Of a stretch of 64,000 nucleotides of DNA, positions 32,447-53,342 are shown piece by piece (within the stretch, counting starts at the first letter, position 1; each line of letters begins with the position of its first letter). The notes beneath the pieces are model-generated. The model had not been told where the DNA came from. It searched no databases and saw nothing but the letters and a program-made list of their open reading frames with translations. The stretch is from Eledone cirrhosa. Lineage: Eukaryota. The translations under genes and the position numbers were made by a program. The DNA is taken from the NCBI GenBank assembly GCA_964016885.1, contig OZ024766.1:1984001-2048000 (forward strand). Reading direction: 5' to 3'.

Positions 32447-33402
32447 GTTTGTATTTGTAAAGCCAAAACAATGCAGGTAAGGACATAGAATATAAATACA
32501 AATGCAAAAGATATTGTTGACAATTAGTCTTTTACTTTAAATTTATTTAAATGTCCTTAATTTTCGAGATAATATCTCTTCTTCGGAGGGAAGTAAAGGG
32601 GTTAAACCAGTCTTCTAAATAGCTTGCCAAGTCAAGTGTTCTAAATAGCTTGACTTGGCAAGCTATTTAGAAGACTGGTTTAACCCCTTTACTTCCCTCC
32701 GAAGAAGAGATATTATCTCGAAAATTAAGGACATTTAAATAAATTTAAGGTAAAAGACTAATTTTCAACAATATCTTTTGTATTTGTATTTATATTCTAT
32801 GTCCATACCTGCATTGTTTTGGCTTTATTATACACATACAAACGTTTATACCTCATTACACAATGCTTCAAGTGAACTATAACTATATATATATATATAT
32901 ATAAAAATTGAGGACCCCGAGGGCTGAGCTCTGACTGTTTCAGCTCTACTACCCCAACTATTGAGTACTCTGGTGAGTAATGGTCTAACTGGCTTTTTAC
33001 CGCCATCTCTCTATTTATCTATATCTACCTCTATCTCTGCAGAAAATGTACGAGCTGGTGCAACAGCAGTACCGCAGCAAATACTACCAGCAGCTGAAGG
33101 ACGGCAAATACAGGATGTTGTGCAGGAGCAAGGCATCGTTTGATTTGGAATACAGGGTGCAAGTTAACAACATACAGACTCTTACGGCTATAGTGGAGCA
33201 GATATGTCAGGAGTACCCCGGCGTACACAAGATTCTCTCAAAGCTGTTGCAGCTCCTGCATAGTCTGGTGATGAAGTACCCATTGCCCGATGAAGAAGAA
33301 GATGAGGAGGGTGATGACGATGATGATGATGACAATGATGAGGCTGAGACTGCAGGGGCAGGGGCAGGGGCAGGGAAGGGAAATATTGGGGAGAAGTTTT
33401 AA
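9750..33402 (+). CDS. CCDC40: Coiled-coil domain-containing protein 40, spliced gene span (15 exons found; 5' end unresolved)
   Basis: Exons 9750-9833, 16310-16529, 17757-17914, 18755-18895, 19114-19217, 20070-20313, 21235-21417, 22214-22459, 23256-23469, 24372-24541, 26760-26851, 28815-29003, 30258-30372, 31190-31348, 33043-33402. All have AG/GT boundaries, phases chain correctly and the total is 2679 nt ending in TAA. Peptides are colinear with my recollection of vertebrate CCDC40 (PRMVKFQ~[17 protein letters not shown]~LGVNLYEVQQ, KKQDYFVD~KKQDLYVD, ELGPM~[17 protein letters not shown]~EIRAMKGEIHRM). Confidence 0.93.
10108..16252. repeat. Intronic purine-rich minisatellite: ~60-bp unit with variable (GA)n, plus a ~120-bp variant
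   Basis: GGAGAGGAGACAGAGGTGGGGAATGGAA(GA)nGCTGGTGGTGTTGTTGTGTGT tandem array. Confidence 0.97.
16310..16529 (+). CDS. CCDC40: CCDC40 exon (TKPLK...[12 protein letters not shown]...NRKH)
   Basis: ttgcag| ... |gtgagt, 220 nt, phase 0-1. Confidence 0.92.
16532..17307. repeat. G-rich minisatellite GGGGTGTACAGTGGT(G)n
   Basis: Tandem array directly after the donor at 16530. Confidence 0.95.
17345..17535 (+). mobile_element. RTE-clade LINE fragment (post-RT region)
   Basis: [16 protein letters not shown]...MLHGSETW...[11 protein letters not shown]. Confidence 0.8.
17536..17715 (-). mobile_element. Fragment of CRE-like LINE restriction-like endonuclease region
   Basis: [14 protein letters not shown]...[16 protein letters not shown] resembles the LEP.GL.R.DG.RPD motif; homologous to 23815-24135. 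Confidence 0.65.
17757..17914 (+). CDS. CCDC40: CCDC40 exon ([10 protein letters not shown]...ETDQKKQ)
   Basis: ttgcag| ... |gtgagt, 158 nt, phase 1-0. Confidence 0.92.
17922..18721. repeat. Compound pentanucleotide microsatellite (CACTA/CACCA/CCGCA)n
   Basis: Direct reading; fills nearly the whole intron. Confidence 0.97.
18755..18895 (+). CDS. CCDC40: CCDC40 exon (DYFVDRL...AEIQLS)
   Basis: ttctag| ... |gtacgt, 141 nt, phase 0-0. Confidence 0.92.
19114..19217 (+). CDS. CCDC40: CCDC40 exon ([13 protein letters not shown]...GMRKRDEAY)
   Basis: tgttag| ... |gtaagt, 104 nt, phase 0-2. Confidence 0.9.
19243..19571. repeat. 48-bp minisatellite, about 7 copies
   Basis: TTTACAGTGTGGGCTGGGTGCTTTTTTCTGTGTCCTTCACATGTCTAC repeats. 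Confidence 0.95.
19830..20033 (-). mobile_element. tRNA-derived SINE (head and body)
   Basis: Minus strand: A box TGGCTTAGTGG, B box GAGTTCAATTC, then CCTTGAGCAAGACACTT core. Confidence 0.8.
20070..20313 (+). CDS. CCDC40: CCDC40 exon (QLQEQ...YKKS...ENEKL...TTNA)
   Basis: ttgtag| ... |gtgagt, 244 nt, phase 2-0. Confidence 0.92.
20459..20720. repeat. ~55-bp minisatellite, about 5 copies
   Basis: AACTGGGAAACTATAACATATATAACCCTATCAGTGAAGCCCTTTAGTATAGGTC repeats. Confidence 0.93.
20881..21200 (-). mobile_element. Full-length tRNA-head SINE with RTE-derived 3' tail
   Basis: A/B boxes at the 21200 end; tail CCTTGCAAGCAGGGAAAGCGGACGTAA shared with the RTE 3' end at 30413-30448; near-identical copy at 26203-26521. 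Confidence 0.85.
21235..21417 (+). CDS. CCDC40: CCDC40 exon (NKNGMEDTL...KSAKY...TEHL)
   Basis: ctgcag| ... |gtgagt, 183 nt, phase 0-0. Confidence 0.9.
22214..22459 (+). CDS. CCDC40: CCDC40 exon ([10 protein letters not shown]...NRKQ...LINRAG)
   Basis: gtccag| ... |gtgagt, 246 nt, phase 0-0. Confidence 0.9.
22485..23061 (-). mobile_element. Same SINE family with an internal ~49-bp tandem expansion and (GAT)n tail
   Basis: Homologous to 20881-21200; segment repeated at 22605-22930. Confidence 0.82.
23096..23188 (-). mobile_element. Two Helitron-like 3' termini in (TA)n
   Basis: Minus strand CCCGAGCAACGCCGGG hairpin followed by TCATTCTGCTAG|T (second copy lacks the final G). Confidence 0.55.
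23256..23469 (+). CDS. CCDC40: CCDC40 exon (GIELGPM...WLQKQ...QKKIRTD)
   Basis: long pyrimidine tract + tacag| ... |gtgagt, 214 nt, phase 0-1. Confidence 0.93.
23521..23649 (+). mobile_element. SINE body fragment (octopod-type)
   Basis: GTGGCTGAGTATTCCACAGACACG...GGAGATTCAGC...GGCTGGCCCTTTGAATTACAGG recalled as a common octopus SINE segment; related piece at ~60181-60215. Confidence 0.55.
23815..24135 (+). mobile_element. Degenerate CRE-like LINE C-terminal (RLE) fragment
   Basis: Frameshifted VGLDRGDG..., [22 protein letters not shown]...[12 protein letters not shown]. Confidence 0.65.
24135..24330. repeat. (CAC)n-type imperfect microsatellite
   Basis: Direct reading. Confidence 0.9.
24372..24541 (+). 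CDS. CCDC40: CCDC40 exon (KINKQ...KLNDL...EKDFIITLK)
   Basis: ttacag| ... |gtattt, 170 nt, phase 1-0. Confidence 0.9.
24785..25097 (+). mobile_element. Second tRNA-derived SINE family, partial tandem duplication
   Basis: A box TGGCAGTATCGG, B box GAGTTCAAATCC, core TTGCCTTTCATCC...GGGGTC...ATAAA.TACCAG present twice; another fragment on the minus strand at ~39795-39892. Confidence 0.75.
25234..25916. repeat. Palindromic ~38-bp minisatellite with internal orientation flip
   Basis: ACCACCTCTGTTGGTCAACAGAGGTGGT units; linker switches from AGCAACACTGCT to AGCAGTGTTGCT near 25660. Confidence 0.95.
25970..26029 (+). ncRNA. Minimal type I hammerhead ribozyme motif
   Basis: Stem I TATTTTGT/ACAAAATA, core CTGAAGA, stem II AGG/CCT, GAAA, 2-bp stem III with palindromic ATAT loop, AUA cleavage triplet. 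Confidence 0.65.
26203..26521 (-). mobile_element. tRNA-head SINE, copy of 20881-21200
   Basis: Near-identical sequence with (GAT)n tail at 26178-26201. Confidence 0.85.
26760..26851 (+). CDS. CCDC40: CCDC40 exon ([20 protein letters not shown]...VET)
   Basis: tatcag| ... |gtgagt, 92 nt, phase 0-2. Confidence 0.9.
26952..27810. repeat. 49-bp minisatellite, about 17 copies
   Basis: TTACAGTGTGGACTGGGAGCTTTTTTACCGTGTCTCCTACATGACAACC. Confidence 0.96.
28138..28711 (+). mobile_element. Non-coding RTE-related retroposon (5'UTR-like region plus 3' hairpin) in (TATG)n; parent family of the block amplified in 1-9528
   Basis: Contains TAGGAGAAGGAAAACTCTGA, which I recall from RTE 5' UTRs; terminal hairpin AGTGGCCG..ACTCG-AAGA-CGAGT..CAGCCACC; 28301-28711 matches copies such as 6894-7303. 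Confidence 0.6.
28815..29003 (+). CDS. CCDC40: CCDC40 exon ([12 protein letters not shown]...EIHRM...FLS)
   Basis: tgccag| ... |gtaagg, 189 nt, phase 2-2. Confidence 0.93.
29070..29995 (-). mobile_element. RTE-clade LINE fragment (APE endonuclease C-terminus and linker), disrupted
   Basis: [12 protein letters not shown]...ITYRSG..SQIDFIL...SQHNLVV, then WW/AWKQWK linker and VSKAIKDMK; frameshifted. Confidence 0.88.
30258..30372 (+). CDS. CCDC40: CCDC40 exon (RDNIDIL...KMTQK)
   Basis: ttacag| ... |gtgaga, 115 nt, phase 2-0. Confidence 0.9.
30413..30705 (-). mobile_element. RTE LINE 3' end
   Basis: RRLRWYGHV...[22 protein letters not shown]...RDKWR. Confidence 0.88.
30628..30985. repeat. 80-bp tandem repeat derived from the RTE fragment (~4.5 copies)
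   Basis: CACATCACATGTCCATACCATCTCAGTC... at 30628, 30708, 30788, 30868, 30948. Confidence 0.93.
31190..31348 (+). CDS. CCDC40: CCDC40 exon (ETFELS...NVKYR)
   Basis: tttcag| ... |gtaaat, 159 nt, phase 0-0. Confidence 0.9.
31457..31571 (-). ncRNA. Degenerate type I hammerhead motif with long stem II
   Basis: Minus strand GGT-CTGATGA-cATGGTGTG...TACACTATa-GAAAC-AATT-GTT-ACC. Confidence 0.45.
31639..32019 (+). mobile_element. Small inverted-repeat element with 3' tail (Penelope pLTR-like relic)
   Basis: Arms 31639-31726 and 31892-31980, tail containing CACAATGCTTCAAG, flanked by (TA)n; internal hammerhead-like motif. Confidence 0.7.
31792..31827 (-). ncRNA. Minimal hammerhead-like motif (variant core)
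   Basis: TCCC-CCGTTGAT-GGGC GTGA GCCC-GAAATATT-GGGA; A6 is mutated. Confidence 0.5.
32213..32263 (+). ncRNA. Type I hammerhead ribozyme motif
   Basis: Stem I AGCTTC/GAAGCT, CTGAAGA, weak stem II TTC/GAA, GAAAC, stem III ACAG/CTGT with ACTAGT palindrome, GUA cleavage after 32257. Confidence 0.7.
32445..32882 (+). mobile_element. ~400-bp palindromic element with 3' tail; each arm carries a minimal hammerhead-like motif (32555-32589 -, 32696-32730 +)
   Basis: ~190-bp arms, 12-nt spacer at 32637-32648, tail CACAATGCTTCAAG; motif CCT-CCGAAGAA-GAGAT ATT ATCTC-GAAAATTA-AGG. Confidence 0.72.
32908..33006 (+). mobile_element. Diverged collapsed relic of the Penelope-like element termini
   Basis: GGACCCCGAGGGCTGAGCTC..GTTTC followed by CTCTACTACC..TATTGAGTACT.TGGTG..ATGGTC, matching 34390-34418 and 38847-38890. 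Confidence 0.7.
33043..33402 (+). CDS. CCDC40: CCDC40 last coding exon (KMYELV...KDGKY...QEYP...acidic tail, stop)
   Basis: ctgcag| acceptor, open to TAA at 33400-33402. Confidence 0.92.
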   Translation, partial: KMYELVQQQYRSKYYQQLKDGKYRMLCRSKASFDLEYRVQVNNIQTLTAIVEQICQEYPGVHKILSKLLQLLHSLVMKYPLPDEEEDEEGDDDDDDDNDEAETAGAGAGAGKGNIGEKF

Positions 33403-33420: not shown

Positions 33421-34378
<958 letters not shown>

Positions 34379-34390
34379 GGAACCAGTAAG

Positions 34391-34484
34391 ACCCCGACAG
34401 CTGAGCTCAAGCCGTTTCGACGGCTAATTCTGGACTAAATGAAAATTTATCCTGGTATTTAAATAGCCGATCTTCTCAAGGGGT
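34391..34484 (-). ncRNA. Type I hammerhead ribozyme (U3-A8 core), inverted copy
   Basis: Reverse complement of 38732-38825. Confidence 0.8.
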
Positions 34485-35607
34485 AATTCCATATATGGTC
34501 AAAGTGATTTTCAAAAATCAGTAGTAATTCTGTGGTTGCAAATTAGTAGGGGAGATGGTGGCTAAACCTGCCAGTAGGAGAAAGAGGGGAGGGGTGGAGT
34601 AGCCCCAATCAAGCGTTTGTAGTGCCAGCTACAGCTGGGCATGAGGTCAAAGAAGATACAGGGGAGGGGGAGGGGGAGGAAGTCGGAACGGTAGGTAGAA
34701 CAATGGGGGGTAGAAATATATAGGAAAGAAAAAATACTGAGAGTGAAGAAAAGCAAATAAGTGTAAAGAAAAACAAATGAGTGTAAAGAAAAAAGTAAAG
34801 TAAATTAAATTCTACGACCTAGGTCTCAGGCTATTGTTAGGCTAGAATAAATAAATAAATAAATAAAGAAAGAAAGAAGTAAAGAAATAAATAAAGAAAT
34901 AACGAAATAAGTAAAAGAACTAGGTGGGACGGATTAGGCGAGGACCCTTTTAAGAGGTATAAGTACGTAAATGATACGGTGACGGGTCAACAAAAGGGGC
35001 CAAAATACTAAAGAGACTACCACGAAATAAACAATAAAGGTTTCCATCCCGGGCACAATTCCAGCAACCACCCAGTTCAGCAAAGTGAACTAATACGAGA
35101 TAATAATTCTGAGTCCCGAGAAAAATATATACTAATGCTAACTCTAAAAGATCTAAAACAATGAAAGTTCGTACGAAGTAAAGGTAGAATACGGAAGAAT
35201 AAATTCAGAATCCACCCCGCCCAAAAGAAAAGCGAAAAAAGAAATACTGAAACGAAAAAATAAGGCATAAGTGCCACTAAGAAATATAGAGGGCACAGAG
35301 AATAGTGGGAGCGGTCGGAAAAAGGGGACAAGTATCCGGGGTCTAAACCAACTGCTATAAAGGGCGGAGTCCGCCAAATCTATCCTAGACTAGGGGAGGG
35401 GGTGGGGGTACAAAGGCTACAAGGGGCCAAAGGGCAGCCTCGGGTGGGCGAGAAAAGACGCCGACAAAGGAGAAGAGCTGGGGTAGAAGGACTAAGGAGA
35501 GAGGGGGGAAGGAAGGAAATAAAGGAAGCGATAAAAGAATACAAAGAAGATCTTACGTCTCCCTTGGCAAGCAGGGGTTACCCATTGCAAAATCGGCAAG
35601 TGGGGTG

Positions 35608-36155
35608 TTATAGCCCTAGTCTACCCCCCGGGTCATTATGGGGTTTGAGGGCGAGGTAAGTCCTACGCAATCTATGTTTACATGCAGTAACCAGTTCATC
35701 TTTCTTGTTTAGGAGTTGGTCCGTCGAAAACAGCATTTGTAAAGTTTCCTCCGAGCATAAATTGCACGGACGGCGTCCTCCCGTGTAAGAATTGGCTATG
35801 GACAGTAATTTCCAAGTGAGATCATAGGTGATGTTGTTGTCCTTGAGGTCCCATATGTGGCCCGAAAGTGTAGTGGCGTGACGCCGGGCCGGGTTTCGGA
35901 AGGTATGTCTATGTTGGTATAGCCGGGTCTTGAAGTCACATGCGGTAAGTCCTATATAGGCTTTGTTGGAGGTATCCGTCCTCACGTTGCACTGGTAGAT
36001 CACATTACGGTCTCTGCATCTATTGTCGAGTGGGCAAATAGATCTATCCGGGCAGTTACACCTCCTGGTCGGTTCTCCACTGCTATTTAGGTTATTTCTG
36101 CCATCGGGGTTGAGTTTTTTGTTGTTAGAGGAGACGATGTTTTGTGCGAAGTTGG
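35608..36155 (-). pseudogene. Inverted duplicate of the GIY-YIG domain coding region
   Basis: ORF 35608-36192(-) is nearly identical to the C-terminus of the + ORF (WKLL vs WRLL). Confidence 0.85.
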
Positions 36156-37591
36156 AGGATAAACGAGAAACTAAATTCATACAGTTCGACATAGAGAGCT
36201 ACTATGCTTCAATCACCTTACCGCTACTTACTGCCGCCTTGGACTTCGCCGAAACACTTGTGCCCATCACCGACCAGGAAAGAAAAATCATCCTCCACGC
36301 CAGGAAGACAGTCTTACTCTTTGACGACTCTAAATGGATAAAAAGAGCTCCCGACTCACCCTTCGACGTCAGCATGGGCGCCACGGATTCGGCGGAGGTC
36401 ACAGATCTTATAGGATTATTCCTAATAGCCAAACTCACTGATATGTTTCCTGCATTCGGTGGTGGATTGTACCGTGATGATGGGCTCCTTACCCTTAAAG
36501 GGTACAACCCCAGTAGTACAGATCGGGTCCGGAAACAATTAATCAGATTCTTCCGCGACTGGGGATTTAAAATAACCCTACAAACGTCCCTGACCAGAGT
36601 AAACTTCCTGGACGTGACCCTCGACCTCGAAAACGACCTGTACTACCCATACAGGAAACCTAATGACAATCTGCACTACATCCACCGCCGATCAAACCAT
36701 CCTAGGAACATCACAAACAACCTGGTCAAAAACATCTCCCTCCGCATATCCCGTTTGTCAGCTAATGAGCGGATATTCGATGAACATGCGCCTTATTACA
36801 ACCAGGCCCTCAAGCGGAGTAGTTTCCGGGAGGAAATATCCTACTGTCCAGCTCCCATTAGCGGAACCAGCAGGAGACACCGCCGCTCACGCAATGTAAC
36901 ATGGTTCAATCCTCCCCACAACGCAGAGGTGACAACTCCCATCGGGAAACTATTCTTTAGGCTCATTGAAAAACACTTCCCATTACAACACCGCTACCAC
37001 AACATAATTAACAAAAATACCATCAAACTCTCTTACAGCACTACACCCAACTTCGCACAAAACATCGTCTCCTCTAACAACAAAAAACTCAACCCCGATG
37101 GCAGAAATAACCTAAATAGCAGTGGAGAACCGACCAGGAGGTGTAACTGCCCGGATAGATCTATTTGTCCACTCGACAATAGATGCAGAGACCGTAATGT
37201 GATCTACCAGTGCAACGTGAGGACGGATACCTCCAACAAAGCCTATATAGGACTTACCGCATGTGACTTCAAGACCCGGCTATACCAACATAGACATACC
37301 TTCCGAAACCCGGCCCGGCGTCACGCCACTACACTTTCGGGCCACATATGGGACCTCAAGGACAACAACATCACCTATGATCTCACTTGGAGATTACTGT
37401 CCATAGCCAATTCTTACACGGGAGGACGCCGTCCGTGCAATTTATGCTCGGAGGAAACTTTACAAATGCTGTTTTCGACGGACCAACTCCTAAACAAGAA
37501 AGATGAACTGGTTACTGCATGTAAACATAGATTGCGTAGGACTTACCTCGCCCTCAAACCCCATAATGACCCGGGGGGGGGGGGGGGGTAG
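36156..37591 (+). CDS. Penelope-like reverse transcriptase + GIY-YIG endonuclease (5'-truncated, uninterrupted)
   Basis: RT motifs FDIESYYASI, MGATDSAEV, YRDD, NFLDVTL, thumb SNHP; CNC..CPL...C linker; VIY...YIG, R...H, CNLC..E, LLN. Confidence 0.93.
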
Positions 37592-38731
37592 ACTAGGGCT
37601 ATAACACCCCACTTGCCGATTTTGCAATGGGTAACCCCTGCTTGCCAAGGGAGACGTAAGATCTTCTTTGTATTCTTTTATCGCTTCCTTTATTTCCTTC
37701 CTTCCCCCCCCCTCTCTCCTTAGTCCTTCTACCCCAGCTCTTCTCCTTTGTCGGCGTCTTTTCTCGCCCACCCGAGGCTGCCCTTTGGCCCCTTGTAGCC
37801 TTTGTACCCCCACCCCCTCCCCTAGTCTAGGATAGATTTGGCGGACTCCGCCCTTTATAGCAGTTGGTTTAGACCCCGGATACTTGTCCCCTTTTCCCGA
37901 CCGCTCCCACTATTCTCTGTGCCCTCTATATTTCTTAGTGGCACTTATGCCTTATTTTTTCGCTTCAGTATTTCTTTCTTCGCTTTTCTTTTGGGCGGGG
38001 TGGATTCTGAATTTATTCTTCCGTATTCTACCTTTACTTCGTACGAACTTTCATTGTTTTAGATCTTTTAGAGTTAGCATTAGTATATATTTTTCTCGGG
38101 ACTCAGAATTATTATCTCGTATTAGTTCACTTTGCTGAACTGGGTGGTTGCTGGAATTGTGCCCGGGATGGAAACCTTTATTGTTTATTTCGTGGTAGTC
38201 TCTTTAGTATTTTGGCCCCTTTTGTTGACCCGTCACCGTATCATTTACGTACTTATACCTCTTAAAAGGGTCCTCGCCTAATCCGTCCCACCTAGTTCTT
38301 TTACTTATTTCGTTATTTCTTTATTTCTTTCTTTACTTCTTTCTTTCTTTCTTTCTTTATTTATTTATTCTAGCCTAACAATAGCCTGAGACCTAGGTCG
38401 TAGAATTTAATTTACTTTACTTTTTTCTTTACACTCATTTGTTTTTCTTTACACTTATTTGCTTTTCTTCACTCTCAGTATTTTTTCTTTCCTATATATT
38501 TCTACCCCCCATTGTTCTACCTACCGTTCCGACTTCCTCCCCCTCCCCCTCCCCTGTATCTTCTTTGACCTCATGCCCAGCTGTAGCTGGCACTACAAAC
38601 GCTTGATTGGGGCTACTCCACCCCCTCCCCTCTTTCTCCTACTGGCAGGTTTAGCCACCATCTCCCCTACTAATTTGCAATCACAGAATTACTACTGATT
38701 TTTGAAAATCACTTTGACCATATATGGAATT

Positions 38732-38825
38732 ACCCCTTGAGAAGATCGGCTATTTAAATACCAGGATAAATTTTCATTTAGTCCAGAATTAGCCGTCGAA
38801 ACGGCTTGAGCTCAGCTGTCGGGGT
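38732..38825 (+). ncRNA. Type I hammerhead ribozyme with U3-A8 variant core
   Basis: Stem I ACCCC/GGGGT; core TTGAGAA; stem II GA(T)CGGCTA/TAGCCGTC; GAAA; stem III ACGGC/GCTGT with TGAGCTCA palindrome; GUC cleavage after 38820. Confidence 0.82.
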
Positions 38826-38959
38826 CTTACTGGTTCCTATTACCCACTCTACTACCTCAAGTATTGAGTACTTTGGTGCGTTATGGTCCACCTGGTTCCT
38901 TACCACATTTCCTTCGTTATATATATATATATATGTGTGTGTGTATGTGTATATATATG

Positions 38960-38992
<33 letters not shown>

Positions 38993-39354
38993 GTGTGTGT
39001 ATGTGTATATATATATATATATGTGTGTGTATATATATATATTTATATATGTGTGTGTATGTGTATATATATATATATGTGTGTGTATGTGTATATATAT
39101 ATATATGTGTGTGTGTATGTGTGTATATATATATATATGTGTGTTTGGGTGTGTATATGTATATATATATATATATGTGTGTATGTGTATATATATATAT
39201 ATGTGTGTGTGTGTGTATGTGTATATATTTATATATGTGTGTGTATGTGTATATATATATGTGTGTGTATGTGTGTATATATATATGTGTGGGTGTGTAT
39301 ATGTGTATATATGTATATATATATGTGTGTGTGTGTATATGTGTATATGTGTGG

Positions 39355-39404
<50 letters not shown>

Positions 39405-39525
39405 ATGTGTATATATTTATATGTGTGTGTATGTGTATATATATATATATGTGTGTGTGTGTATGTATATATATATATATATATGTGTGTGTGTATGTAT
39501 ATATATATATATATATATATATAGA

Positions 39526-39558
<33 letters not shown>

Positions 39559-39579
39559 GTGTGTGTATATATATATTTT

Positions 39580-39960
39580 TATACTAGGGGAGGGTCATAT
39601 AGTTGTAATAATGTTGCCAGAAATAATAACAGAACACACTCACTGTTTGGTTGGTTTTCACTTCTGTATCTTTTATATCTCCATAGTTAATTTATTTGGC
39701 AATCAATGTTTATCATTGACTGACCAACGGTTAAAGATACAGATATAAATAAAAATGGCGTAGGCATTACCATACAATGGAATGAAATATAATAGTTGTT
39801 TCTATTTTTGGCACAAGGCCAGCAATGACCCAGTACATTACTGGTACTTTATTTTATCGACCTCGTAAGGATGAAAAGCGAAGTTAACCTCGATGGGAGG
39901 AAACATAATAGTACCACTGATGATGTCACAGATGTGTGATGAAAGAACTTTGATAGACTA

Positions 39961-51600: not shown

Positions 51601-53142
51601 TGGAATCATTCTAGTCATTTATGATGCCGTTTTACCCATTTTAGTCATTTATAATGACGTTTGAACTATTTAAGAGTCATTTTAGTCATTTATGATGCCG
51701 TTTTAGCCATTTTAGTCATTTATAATGACGTTTTAGCTATTTAAGTGTCATTTTAGTCATTTATGATGCCGTTTTATGCATTTTGGAGTCATTTTAGTCA
51801 TTTATGATTCCGTTTTAGCCATTTTAGTCATTTATAATGACTTTTTAGCCACTTTAGAGTCATTTTAGTCATTCATGATGCTGTTTTAGCCATTTTGTTG
51901 TCATTCTAGTCATTTATGATGCCGTTTTAGCCATTTTAGCCATTTATAATGACGTTTTAGCTATTTAAGAGTCATTTTAGTCATTTATAATGCCGTTTTA
52001 GCCATTTTAGTCATTTATGATGCTATTTTAGCCCTTCTAGACACATTTGAGTCATTCATAATGCCGTTTTACCCATTTTAGTCATTTATAATGACGTTTT
52101 AGCCCCTTTAGAGTCATTGTAGTCATTTATGATCCCGTTTTTGCCATTTTAGTCATTTATAATGACGTTTTAGCCATTTAAGAGTTATTTTCGTCATTTA
52201 TGATGCCATTGTAGCCATTTCAGAGTCATTTTGTTATTTATGATGCCGTTTTCGCCATTTTAGTCATGTATGATGCCGTTTTAGCCTCTTTAGAGACATT
52301 TTAGTCATTTATGATGCCGTTTTAACCATCTTGGAGTCATTCTAGTCATTTATGATGCCGTTTTAGCCATTTTAGCCATTTATAATGACGTTTTAGCTAT
52401 TTAAGAGTCATTTTAGTCATTTATAATGCCGTTTTAGCCATTTTAGTCATTTATGATGCTATTATAGCCCTTCTAGACACATTTGAGTCATTCATAATGC
52501 CGTTTTACCCATTTTAGTCATTTATAATGACGTTTTAGCCCCTTTAGAGTCATTGTAGTCATTTATGATCCCGTTATTGCCATTTTAGTCATTGCTAATG
52601 ACGTTTTAGCTATTTTAGAGTCATTTGATTTATTAAAGATGCTGTTTTAACCATTTTGGAGTCATTTTAGTCATTTCTGATGCTGCTCTAGATATGTTAG
52701 TCATTTATAATGATGTTTTAGCTATTTAAGAGTCATTTTAGTCATTTATGATGCCGTTTTAGCCATTTTAGTCATTCCTAATGACGTTTTAGCTATTTTA
52801 GAGTCATTTGAGTCATTTAATATGACTCTAAACTGGTTAAAACGTTATTATAAATGACTAAAATGGCTTAAACGCCATCATAAATGACTAAAATGGCTCC
52901 AAAATGGATAAAACGGCATCATAAATGACTAAAATGACTCTAAAATGGCTATAACGTCATTATAAAGGACTAAAATGGTTAAAACTGCATCATAAATGAC
53001 TAAAATGACTCTTAAATAACTAAAACGTCATTATAAATGACTAAAATGGCTAAAACGGCATCATGAATGACTAAAATGACTCCAAAATGGATAAAACGGC
53101 ATCATGAAAGACTAAAATGACTCTTAAATAGCTAAAACGTCA
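42690..53142. repeat. AT-rich satellite of 10-11-bp subrepeats (TTTTAGTCAT / TTATGATGCCG / TTTTAGCCAT / TTTAGAGTCAT) with strand switches
   Basis: Continuous array up to the gap; orientation flips near 42925, 43610, 44141, 45520, 52821. Confidence 0.97.
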
Positions 53143-53342
53143 NNNNNNNNNNNNNNNNNNNNNNNNNNNNNNNNNNNNNNNNNNNNNNNNNNNNNNNNNN
53201 NNNNNNNNNNNNNNNNNNNNNNNNNNNNNNNNNNNNNNNNNNNNNNNNNNNNNNNNNNNNNNNNNNNNNNNNNNNNNNNNNNNNNNNNNNNNNNNNNNNN
53301 NNNNNNNNNNNNNNNNNNNNNNNNNNNNNNNNNNNNNNNNNN
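53143..53342. other. Assembly gap (200 N)
   Basis: Run of N. Confidence 1.

What the first reader, a model, noticed from the sequence alone, without database searches (positions are those of the whole stretch)
34377..38897. Young Penelope-like element whose termini carry a hammerhead ribozyme with a non-canonical U3-A8 core
Seen: ACCCC-TTGAGAA-GA(T)CGGCTA..TAGCCGTC-GAAA-CGGC-TTGAGCTCA-GCTGTC|GGGGT at 38732-38825, mirrored at 34391-34484. All three stems close, and the usual CUGANGA box reads UUGAGAA, swapping the C3-G8 tertiary pair for U3-A8. Established: Penelope-like elements carry type I hammerheads in their pLTRs, often with palindromic stem III loops, and 3-8 covariation is tolerated. 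Inference: this is a functional variant that CUGANGA-only searches would miss. It has an unusually long stem II insert, and cleavage would fall ~20 nt from the end of the inverted arm.
Basis: partly seen in the sequence, partly recalled or inferred. Interest (0 to 1): 0.85.

Follow-up and report, generated by a model that had tools for sequence, protein, structure and literature searches.

The report
Retroelement hammerhead with a shifting core
This is a very young copy of a Penelope-like jumping gene ending in a predicted self-cutting RNA (hammerhead); its unusual core pair is already known, but older copies in the same genome show that this pair changed repeatedly, once to a mismatch, while the family kept multiplying, which suggests the element likely needs little cutting.

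Summary
A 5'-truncated, partly inverted Hydra-clade Penelope-like element (34377-38919) ends on both sides in the same type I hammerhead motif with a U3-A8 core. U3-A8 is not new: it was reported in Schistosoma PLEs (PMC4209133) and in other natural hammerheads (PMC3088659). What my searches did not find in print is the family history. About 6,000 genomic ends form a ladder of 12 subfamily groups. The ten other core bases, stem I and a loop-III palindrome never change, stem II covaries, and the free position N7 takes all four bases. The 3/8 pair runs C-G, U.G, U-A, U.G, U-A, C.A (1,279 matches), U-A (this copy). So this copy's U3-A8 is a reversion from a mismatch, not a direct swap from C-G (AU test p=1.4e-5). 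No 3' end (0 of 106) and at most 1-2 of 85 5' ends lie at the predicted cut. Best reading: a selected but likely slow, dimer-forming ribozyme whose RNA is copied uncut or re-joined. No RNA data could test cleavage. A 299-bp tandem array elsewhere looks like a newborn retrozyme of this family.

The parts
34377..36155 (-). Inverted, 5'-truncated copy: endonuclease-coding end of the ORF, 3' UTR and hammerhead, ending 19-20 nt past the predicted cut
   Evidence: 98.7% identical over 1,794 columns to 37047-38840; 9 substitutions
34391..34484 (-). Hammerhead motif, left copy (predicted cut after 34396)
   Evidence: Identical to the right copy; descriptor hit; model R1 108.8 bits (the right copy is in the model's training set)
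36153..37591 (+). 5'-truncated ORF, from about residue 243 of the 717-aa protein: RT palm and thumb, CxCX5C linker, GIY-YIG-type endonuclease. The N-terminal 242 residues are missing, so this copy is likely non-autonomous
   Evidence: the full-length protein's model (pLDDT 91.8) matches TERT best
37592..38731 (+). 3' UTR of about 1.1 kb, pyrimidine-rich, long for a Hydra element
38732..38825 (+). Type I hammerhead motif with U3 (38737) and A8 (38742); predicted cut after C38820
38753..38789 (+). Long distal stem II and loop (37 nt), the fast-changing part of the motif
   Evidence: 27 of 37 columns change along the subfamily ladder
38808..38813 (+). 6-nt palindrome in loop III, predicted dimerisation seed
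   Evidence: Unchanged in all 12 groups; predicted dimer -62.9 against -46.4 kcal/mol for two monomers
38726..38837 (+). Outer limits of the predicted extended helix I (38726-38729 pairing with 38834-38837), whose base lies next to the common +20 end of insertions
   Evidence: pair probability 0.33-0.83 in three short contexts, 0 in the longest
38841..38919 (+). Tail of about 80 nt present on one end only; it is the start of the 5' UTR of the next tandem unit
   Evidence: Matches the natural array at G000:C1:437.2 Mb; 32 of 106 young 3' ends stop here
33423..34376 (.). TA/TG microsatellite target, left flank
38920..39580 (.). TA/TG microsatellite target, right flank

Best explanation
This is a young, 5'-truncated Hydra-clade Penelope-like retrotransposon whose 3' end carries a conserved type I hammerhead fold with a U3-A8 core; the ribozyme is likely slow and dimer-forming, and the element is likely copied from RNA in which the junction is uncut or re-joined. 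Shown: the anatomy, the clade motifs, the constancy of the core and stems, the ladder of 3/8 states, and that insertion ends avoid the predicted cut. Inferred: read-through transcripts of tandem copies would be cut occasionally at the ribozyme, probably as a double hammerhead through the loop-III palindrome. The unit-length RNA, which begins about 190 nt before the start codon, would be ligated into a circle. The element's RT and endonuclease would prime at a nicked (TA)n site, 20 or 100 nt downstream of the junction, and read through it. That would give partial tandems, multi-unit arrays, one-sided tails and inverted arms. If only a small cleaved fraction is needed, the 3/8 pair can drift among pyrimidine-purine combinations while the remaining core is kept.
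For: Along 12 groups (234 copies kept of 272), 0 of 10 non-3/7/8 core columns change their commonest base against 46 of 71 unpaired or flanking columns (Fisher p=1e-4); 4 of 32 stem columns change (p=6e-7); N7 changes 6 times. With core positions 3-9 left free there are 5,589 matches. In the first 100 rows (hand tally) U4 is kept in 99, G5 in 98, A6 in 100 and A9 in 100; N7 is G71/U18/A7/C4, position 3 is U79/C21 and position 8 is A96/G4. In 28 chosen copies 94.2% of cells pair and 3 stem II pairs change on both sides; 0 of 500 shuffles reach the score. The oldest copies are mostly C3-G8 (15 of 25), as are all 26 Hydra rows of Craig File S2 and a 37%-identical metagenomic relative. 3' ends: 40 of 106 at +20, 32 at +98 to +100, 0 at the cut. 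5' ends: 80 of 85 copies that reach the site read through it by more than 6 nt. Arrays are internally uniform: 0-1 differences among four 3,531-bp units, against 52 substitutions in 2,519 columns to the window copy. The dimer is predicted to be favoured by 16.5 kcal/mol. Metazoan PLE hammerheads cleaved poorly in vitro and only as multimers or with an added helix III (PMC4209133).
Against: There is no cleavage or RNA evidence: only contigs were available and the one RNA run covers 134 nt of 3' UTR. In a mutational scan of one hammerhead, every single and double change in this region except the G-C swap had low activity (PMC9901934), so U.G, C.A and even U-A may be close to dead. A C.A master lineage with 1,279 matches fits equally well with cleavage being dispensable. 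In a 450-nt context the predicted hammerhead helices disappear. Uniform arrays can arise by unequal crossover, and two adjacent units of the 299-bp array share a variant. Most copies were fetched with patterns that require parts of the core and stems, which inflates conservation. The control ignores relatedness. The tree rests on about 170 columns, and its outgroup was not cleanly separated from the next group.
Confidence: 0.55

Rival explanations
1. The fold is kept as a structural signal (binding site for the element's RT/endonuclease, RNA dimerisation, definition of the priming site) and cleavage has become dispensable.
For: The lineage passed through C3.A8 and its descendants are the currently active family. 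Ends avoid the cut. The common +20 end sits at the base of extended helix I. Naiads amplify without canonical hammerheads (PMC8557442).
Against: The bases that stay fixed are those that hammerhead catalysis needs, including G12 and the U-C cleavage step, while N7 is free. Position 3 stayed a pyrimidine and position 8 a purine, and the pair returned to Watson-Crick twice.
Confidence: 0.25
2. It is an efficient monomeric ribozyme: U3-A8 fully replaces C3-G8, the RNA is cut and then circularised by a host ligase, and the U.G and C.A stages were tolerated in this structural context.
For: A 5-bp stem III allows a monomer fold (helix probabilities 0.73-0.98 for the isolated motif). U3-A8 ribozymes are described as active in vitro (PMC3088659). 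Read-through is also expected from ligated circles. Six 5' ends cluster within -6 to +3 of the site, one compatible with an exact start.
Against: Mismatch states are expected to be poorly active. Five of the six clustered ends are off the site, which also fits RT stalling at the structure.
Confidence: 0.15
3. The motif is a decayed, non-functional relic, and its conservation reflects only recent copying.
For: No Rfam hit; unremarkable folding energy; non-Watson-Crick core states.
Against: Core and stems stay fixed while the loop between them is largely rewritten, and compensatory changes occur in stem II.
Confidence: 0.05

Closest known systems
Hydra clade of C-terminal EN+ Penelope-like elements (Craig et al. 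2021, PMC8557442)
   Same: DKT, an RWK-type motif (RWR here), CxCX5C linker, CxxC and CxH around the catalytic E and N, no CCHH, (TA)n targets, a 3' hammerhead, partial tandems, an inverted 5'-truncated arm and a one-sided tail.
   Different: Unit of 3.53 kb (Hydra are generally under 3 kb) with a 1.1-kb 3' UTR; tail about 80 nt instead of 30-40; hammerhead with long stem II, 5-bp stem III and 9-nt palindromic loop. All 26 listed Hydra hammerhead rows are C3-G8, whereas this family shows four 3/8 states.
U3-A8 minimal hammerheads of Schistosoma mansoni Cercyon PLEs (Cervera and de la Pena 2014, PMC4209133)
   Same: U3-A8 core in a PLE terminal hammerhead, found in over a thousand genomic copies and missed by a C3-G8 descriptor.
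   Different: Those lack helix III. No U.G or C.A subfamily and no order of changes appear in the parts I read (abstract, results, discussion; figures and supplements not seen).
Animal non-LTR retrozymes (PMC7229834; preprint 10.64898/2026.07.22.740005)
   Same: Type I hammerhead once per tandem unit, proposed circular RNA intermediates, proposed origin from PLE termini. The 299-bp array at G000:C2:356.03 Mb fits their 170-400 nt size.
   Different: The window element is a coding PLE copy; only the array elsewhere is retrozyme-like, and its parent is a still-young family in the same genome.

Membership tests
Penelope-like element, EN+ | Telomerase-like reverse transcriptase | tested here: met
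   Model of the natural 717-aa ORF (pLDDT 91.8) matches TERT best, E 2.4e-8; YRDD invariant in 92 of 92 aligned sequences. Pfam gave no family.
Penelope-like element, EN+ | C-terminal GIY-YIG endonuclease with catalytic R, H, E, N | tested here: met
   Y593, Y606, G608, R617, H621, E676, N689 invariant in 92 of 92. By motif only; no profile hit on the query.
Penelope-like element, EN+ | Partial tandems, inverted 5'-truncated copy, one-sided tail | tested here: met
Hydra clade | DKT instead of DKG; RWK motif | tested here: met
   D117-K118-T119; R37-W38-R39, with R at the third place
Hydra clade | CxCX5C linker, CxxC and CxH around E and N, CCHH absent | tested here: met
   C572/C574/C580, C670/C673, C698/H700 conserved; no conserved cysteines between Y593 and Y606
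Hydra clade | Insertion into (TA)n | tested here: met
   Window flanks and the ends of many copies
Hydra clade | Phylogenetic placement among published Hydra RTs | not tested
   Compared by eye only with Hydra proteins in the paper's supplement; no tree was built with them.
Type I hammerhead ribozyme | Three-way junction with stems I-III | tested here: met
Type I hammerhead ribozyme | Invariant core U4 G5 A6 A9 G12 A13 A14 A15.1 U16.1 H17 with free N7 | tested here: met
Type I hammerhead ribozyme | Watson-Crick pair between positions 3 and 8 | tested here: inconclusive
   Met in the window copy (U-A) and in 4,759 + 8 of 6,090 matches; not met in 1,279 C.A and 44 U.G matches
Type I hammerhead ribozyme | Loop II to stem I tertiary contact | not tested
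   An internal loop in extended stem I is predicted; no contact was identified.
Type I hammerhead ribozyme | Self-cleavage after H17 | not testable with these tools
   No raw RNA reads; genomic ends show no sharp pile-up at the site.
Non-LTR retrozyme (array at G000:C2:356.03 Mb, outside the window) | 170-400 nt non-coding tandem units, each with a type I hammerhead | tested here: met
   299-bp units, six complete motifs plus a partial first unit. The isolated unit's minimum-energy fold is not the hammerhead fold.
Non-LTR retrozyme (array at G000:C2:356.03 Mb, outside the window) | Expression as linear and circular RNA | not testable with these tools
   No suitable RNA run

The most novel reading that the evidence does not exclude
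One genome preserves, in order, the whole natural walk of the hammerhead's catalytic 3/8 pair (C-G, U.G, U-A, U.G, U-A, C.A, U-A) in a single continuously active retrotransposon lineage. The walk shows that PLEs are selected for a throttled, dimer-dependent ribozyme that yields a minority of circular templates, and the same family has just given birth to a 299-bp retrozyme by rolling-circle copying.
Probability: 0.3. Interest if true: 0.8.

Novelty: new variant of a known kind. Interest (0 to 1): 0.55.

Why it matters
The role of hammerheads in endonuclease-bearing PLEs is described as unclear (PMC8557442). This family supplies natural, ordered variants of one catalytic-core pair in an almost constant scaffold, each with a record of how well it multiplied. 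Measuring their cleavage rates would show directly how much cutting retrotransposition needs, and whether a C.A or U.G core can work. It also shows that CUGANGA descriptors miss nearly all of the roughly 6,000 ends here, and it offers a parent-and-offspring pair for the origin of retrozymes.

Tried and rejected
Rfam: no hammerhead family matched the window region or 17 other loci. Pfam: no family on the ORF; the PDB sequence search gave only a chance hit. Folding energy against shuffles is uninformative (z=0.18). Public runs: five listed, all contigs; the one RNA run has a 0.08 share and covers 134 nt of 3' UTR, so it says nothing on expression or cleavage. C3.A8 as post-insertion decay was rejected: it is 21% of matches against 0.9% for the comparable transition at position 8, and it forms clades. 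All U3-A8 copies as one clade was rejected (p-AU 5.7e-13), as was the middle plus young U-A groups without C.A (1.4e-5). 5' ends at the cut: a cluster of six within -6 to +3, only one compatible with an exact start; inconclusive, and ends beyond about -160 are confounded by indels. Two different template RNAs for the two arms: not supported, since 5 of 9 differences are private. A longer-alignment tree lost the C.A rows to my filter and is not used for that point. Model R1 found nothing in eight metagenomic relatives; a canonical hammerhead was seen by eye in two overlapping ones. The primary kinetic papers on the 3/8 pair were not held. Searches for prior reports of U.G or C.A cores or of such a ladder returned only PMC4209133, PMC8557442 and, PMC3774820 on the R2 HDV-like ribozyme (listing only). 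The library lacks most subscription journals.
Full report
Observation. The two copies (38732-38825 +, 34391-34484 -) are identical, and they are mirrored because 34376-36155 is a 98.7% identical inverted copy of 37047-38840. The core has U3 (38737) and A8 (38742); the predicted cut is after C38820. The isolated motif folds into the hammerhead junction with helix probabilities of 0.73-0.98. A relaxed descriptor finds these two hits only and none in 300 resampled windows. Rfam does not detect it, and its folding energy is ordinary.

The element. A natural head-to-tail array at G000:C1:437.2 Mb gives the unit: 3,531 bp, a hammerhead at each junction, a start codon about 190 nt after the predicted cut and a 717-aa ORF. 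The window copy begins near residue 243 and so lacks the N-terminal third. It is joined to the inverted arm over a 3-nt overlap, and on the right it continues about 80 nt into the 5' UTR of the next unit, ending near 38919 in a TA repeat. The protein has 2,036 homologues among 8,000 candidates scored. Its model matches telomerase RT best, and it carries the Hydra signatures listed by Craig et al. (PMC8557442, section read): DKT, an RWK-type motif, CxCX5C, CxxC and CxH around E and N, no CCHH. The family is young: 89 scored copies are 99-100% identical at protein level with no stops in the matched part, and the two arms differ by 9 substitutions, 5 of them private.

Is U3-A8 new? No. Cervera and de la Pena (PMC4209133; abstract, results and discussion read) report U3-A8 in Schistosoma Cercyon PLEs with about 1,300 hits. 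Perreault et al. (PMC3088659; passages) report natural U3-A8 covariation and cite earlier proof of activity. Within Hydra it appears new: all 26 Hydra rows in Craig File S2 have C3 and G8.

The family history. With this stem I and the other core boxes fixed, the genome holds 4,803 matches with U3 and 1,287 with C3; G8 occurs in 44 and 8 of them (reversed-pattern controls 0-1). So about 4,759 are U-A, 1,279 C.A, 44 U.G and 8 C-G. With positions 3-9 left free there are 5,589 matches, and in the first 100 rows only positions 3, 7 and 8 vary beyond single cases (hand tally). Older copies were reached by further patterns and by similarity; among the 46 matches, 10 are C-G, 5 U.G, 1 C.A and 30 U-A. 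From the fetched loci I extracted 272 rows and dropped 38 (fold-back junctions, deletions and one poorly matching row). I sorted the remaining 234 into 12 groups by nearest seed copy with positions 3, 7 and 8 masked. Median non-CpG divergence falls from about 0.09 in the oldest groups to 0.009 in the window's group, not strictly monotonically. The trees are ladders. The commonest 3/8 state in order is C-G, U.G, U-A, U.G, U-A, U-A, C.A, C.A, then U-A in four young groups. Group counts are biased by how loci were fetched. The first U.G stage rests on few copies (6 of 17 in a mixed group; 3 of 3 of that loop type with G at N7 in the first 100 rows) and is not cleanly separated from the C-G group in the tree. 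The second rests on 15 of 18, mostly fetched by a U.G pattern. The C.A stage is firm: a tree holding the middle and young U-A groups together without it is rejected (p-AU 1.4e-5, 47 chosen rows). This copy's U3-A8 is therefore a reversion from a mismatch. C-G as the starting state is supported by the published Hydra set and by a canonical motif in a 37%-identical metagenomic relative.

Selection. Along the ladder 0 of 10 other core columns, 0 of 10 stem I columns, 3 of 14 proximal stem II columns and 1 of 8 stem III columns change, against 46 of 71 distal, bulge and flank columns; N7 changes six times; the six-base palindrome in loop III never changes. In 28 chosen copies three stem II pairs change on both sides (this control ignores relatedness). 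This is the pattern expected of a hammerhead under selection, with the 3/8 pair as the exception. Patterns that required parts of the core could have hidden subfamilies that lost them; argues against this for positions 3-9 only.

Mechanism. Insertions do not end at the cut. Of 106 young 3' ends, 40 stop at +20, 32 at +98 to +100, 21 run on, 13 are scattered and none is at the site. Of 97 5'-UTR-containing segments in 89 loci, 85 reach the site, 80 pass it by more than 6 nt, and 5 stop within 6 nt upstream, one of them compatible with an exact start. The copied RNA thus usually held an intact junction: uncut, or re-ligated as in the circular-template proposal of PMC4209133 and as shown for retrozyme RNAs (PMC7229834; passages). 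Multi-unit arrays with uniform units fit rolling-circle copying but also later crossover. The stem-loop III region is nearly self-complementary and a double hammerhead is predicted to be favoured by 16.5 kcal/mol. Against efficient catalysis: the mismatch stages; low activity of all changes but the G-C swap in a mutational scan (PMC9901934; passages; supplements listed, not read); and poor in vitro cleavage of metazoan PLE hammerheads. I could not obtain the primary kinetic papers on this pair. I therefore favour a slow, dimer-assisted ribozyme feeding a minority of unit-length, probably circular templates (0.55), over a purely structural role (0.25), an efficient monomer (0.15) or a relic (0.05). 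All statements on catalysis are inference; the available runs were contigs only.

A by-product. At G000:C2:356.03 Mb seven repeats of 299 bp consist of this family's hammerhead with a shortened loop II, the 5' UTR and the first codons; the array ends at the usual +100 position in TA repeats. It has the size and layout of a non-LTR retrozyme and supports the PLE origin proposed in the 2026 preprint (parts 1 and 3 of 5 read).

Verdict. The feature is real and under selection. The headline variant is known. The ordered series of core states, including a mismatch stage ancestral to the active family, was not found in my searches and makes the open question of what PLE hammerheads do directly testable. 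Interest 0.55.

Noticed in passing
L252 = G000:C2:356029788-356032022: Seven tandem 299-bp repeats made of the family's hammerhead (19 nt deleted from loop II), 5' UTR and first codons, ending at the standard +100 position; looks like a newborn retrozyme. Two adjacent units share one variant.
   Followed up: partly
L253 = G000:C3:139310940-139311416: A second short tandem (period 226 bp) of the 3' half of the ribozyme plus 5' UTR; lacks the 5' core box.
   Followed up: partly
window 59687-59866: Short fold-back insertion of the same family: 3' half of the ribozyme inverted against ribozyme end plus tail, in TA repeats. Many such short fold-backs, turning within stem II, occur in the fetched loci (e.g. 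L316, L325, L330, L331, L332, L339).
   Followed up: partly
window 32911-33010: Decayed fold-back remnant of an old subfamily of the same element, 1.4 kb left of the finding.
   Followed up: partly
G000:C1:91.47-91.49 Mb, C1:437.20-437.21 Mb, C2:320.55 Mb and others: Multi-unit tandem arrays of the full element, each with its own unit length (3,528-3,548 bp).
   Followed up: partly
window 38718-38727: A 10-nt palindrome just upstream of stem I, unchanged in 9 of the 12 groups and changed at one base in three; role unknown.
   Followed up: no
window 37573-37590: G-run at the end of the ORF is 18 long in the direct copy and 8 in the inverted arm; length variation here changes the last residues of the protein among copies.
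   Followed up: no
window 57605-58258 (+): ORF with a zf-RVT match (Pfam PF13966, E 4.9e-7), probably a fragment of an unrelated non-LTR retrotransposon.
   Followed up: no
window 53132-55982 (-): Long overlapping open frames (793 and 439 aa) without a credible Pfam stretch, probably read from a tandem repeat.
   Followed up: no
L371:2388-2436 and L373: Canonical C3-G8 type I hammerhead at the end of a metagenomic Hydra-like element, not detected by Rfam.
   Followed up: partly
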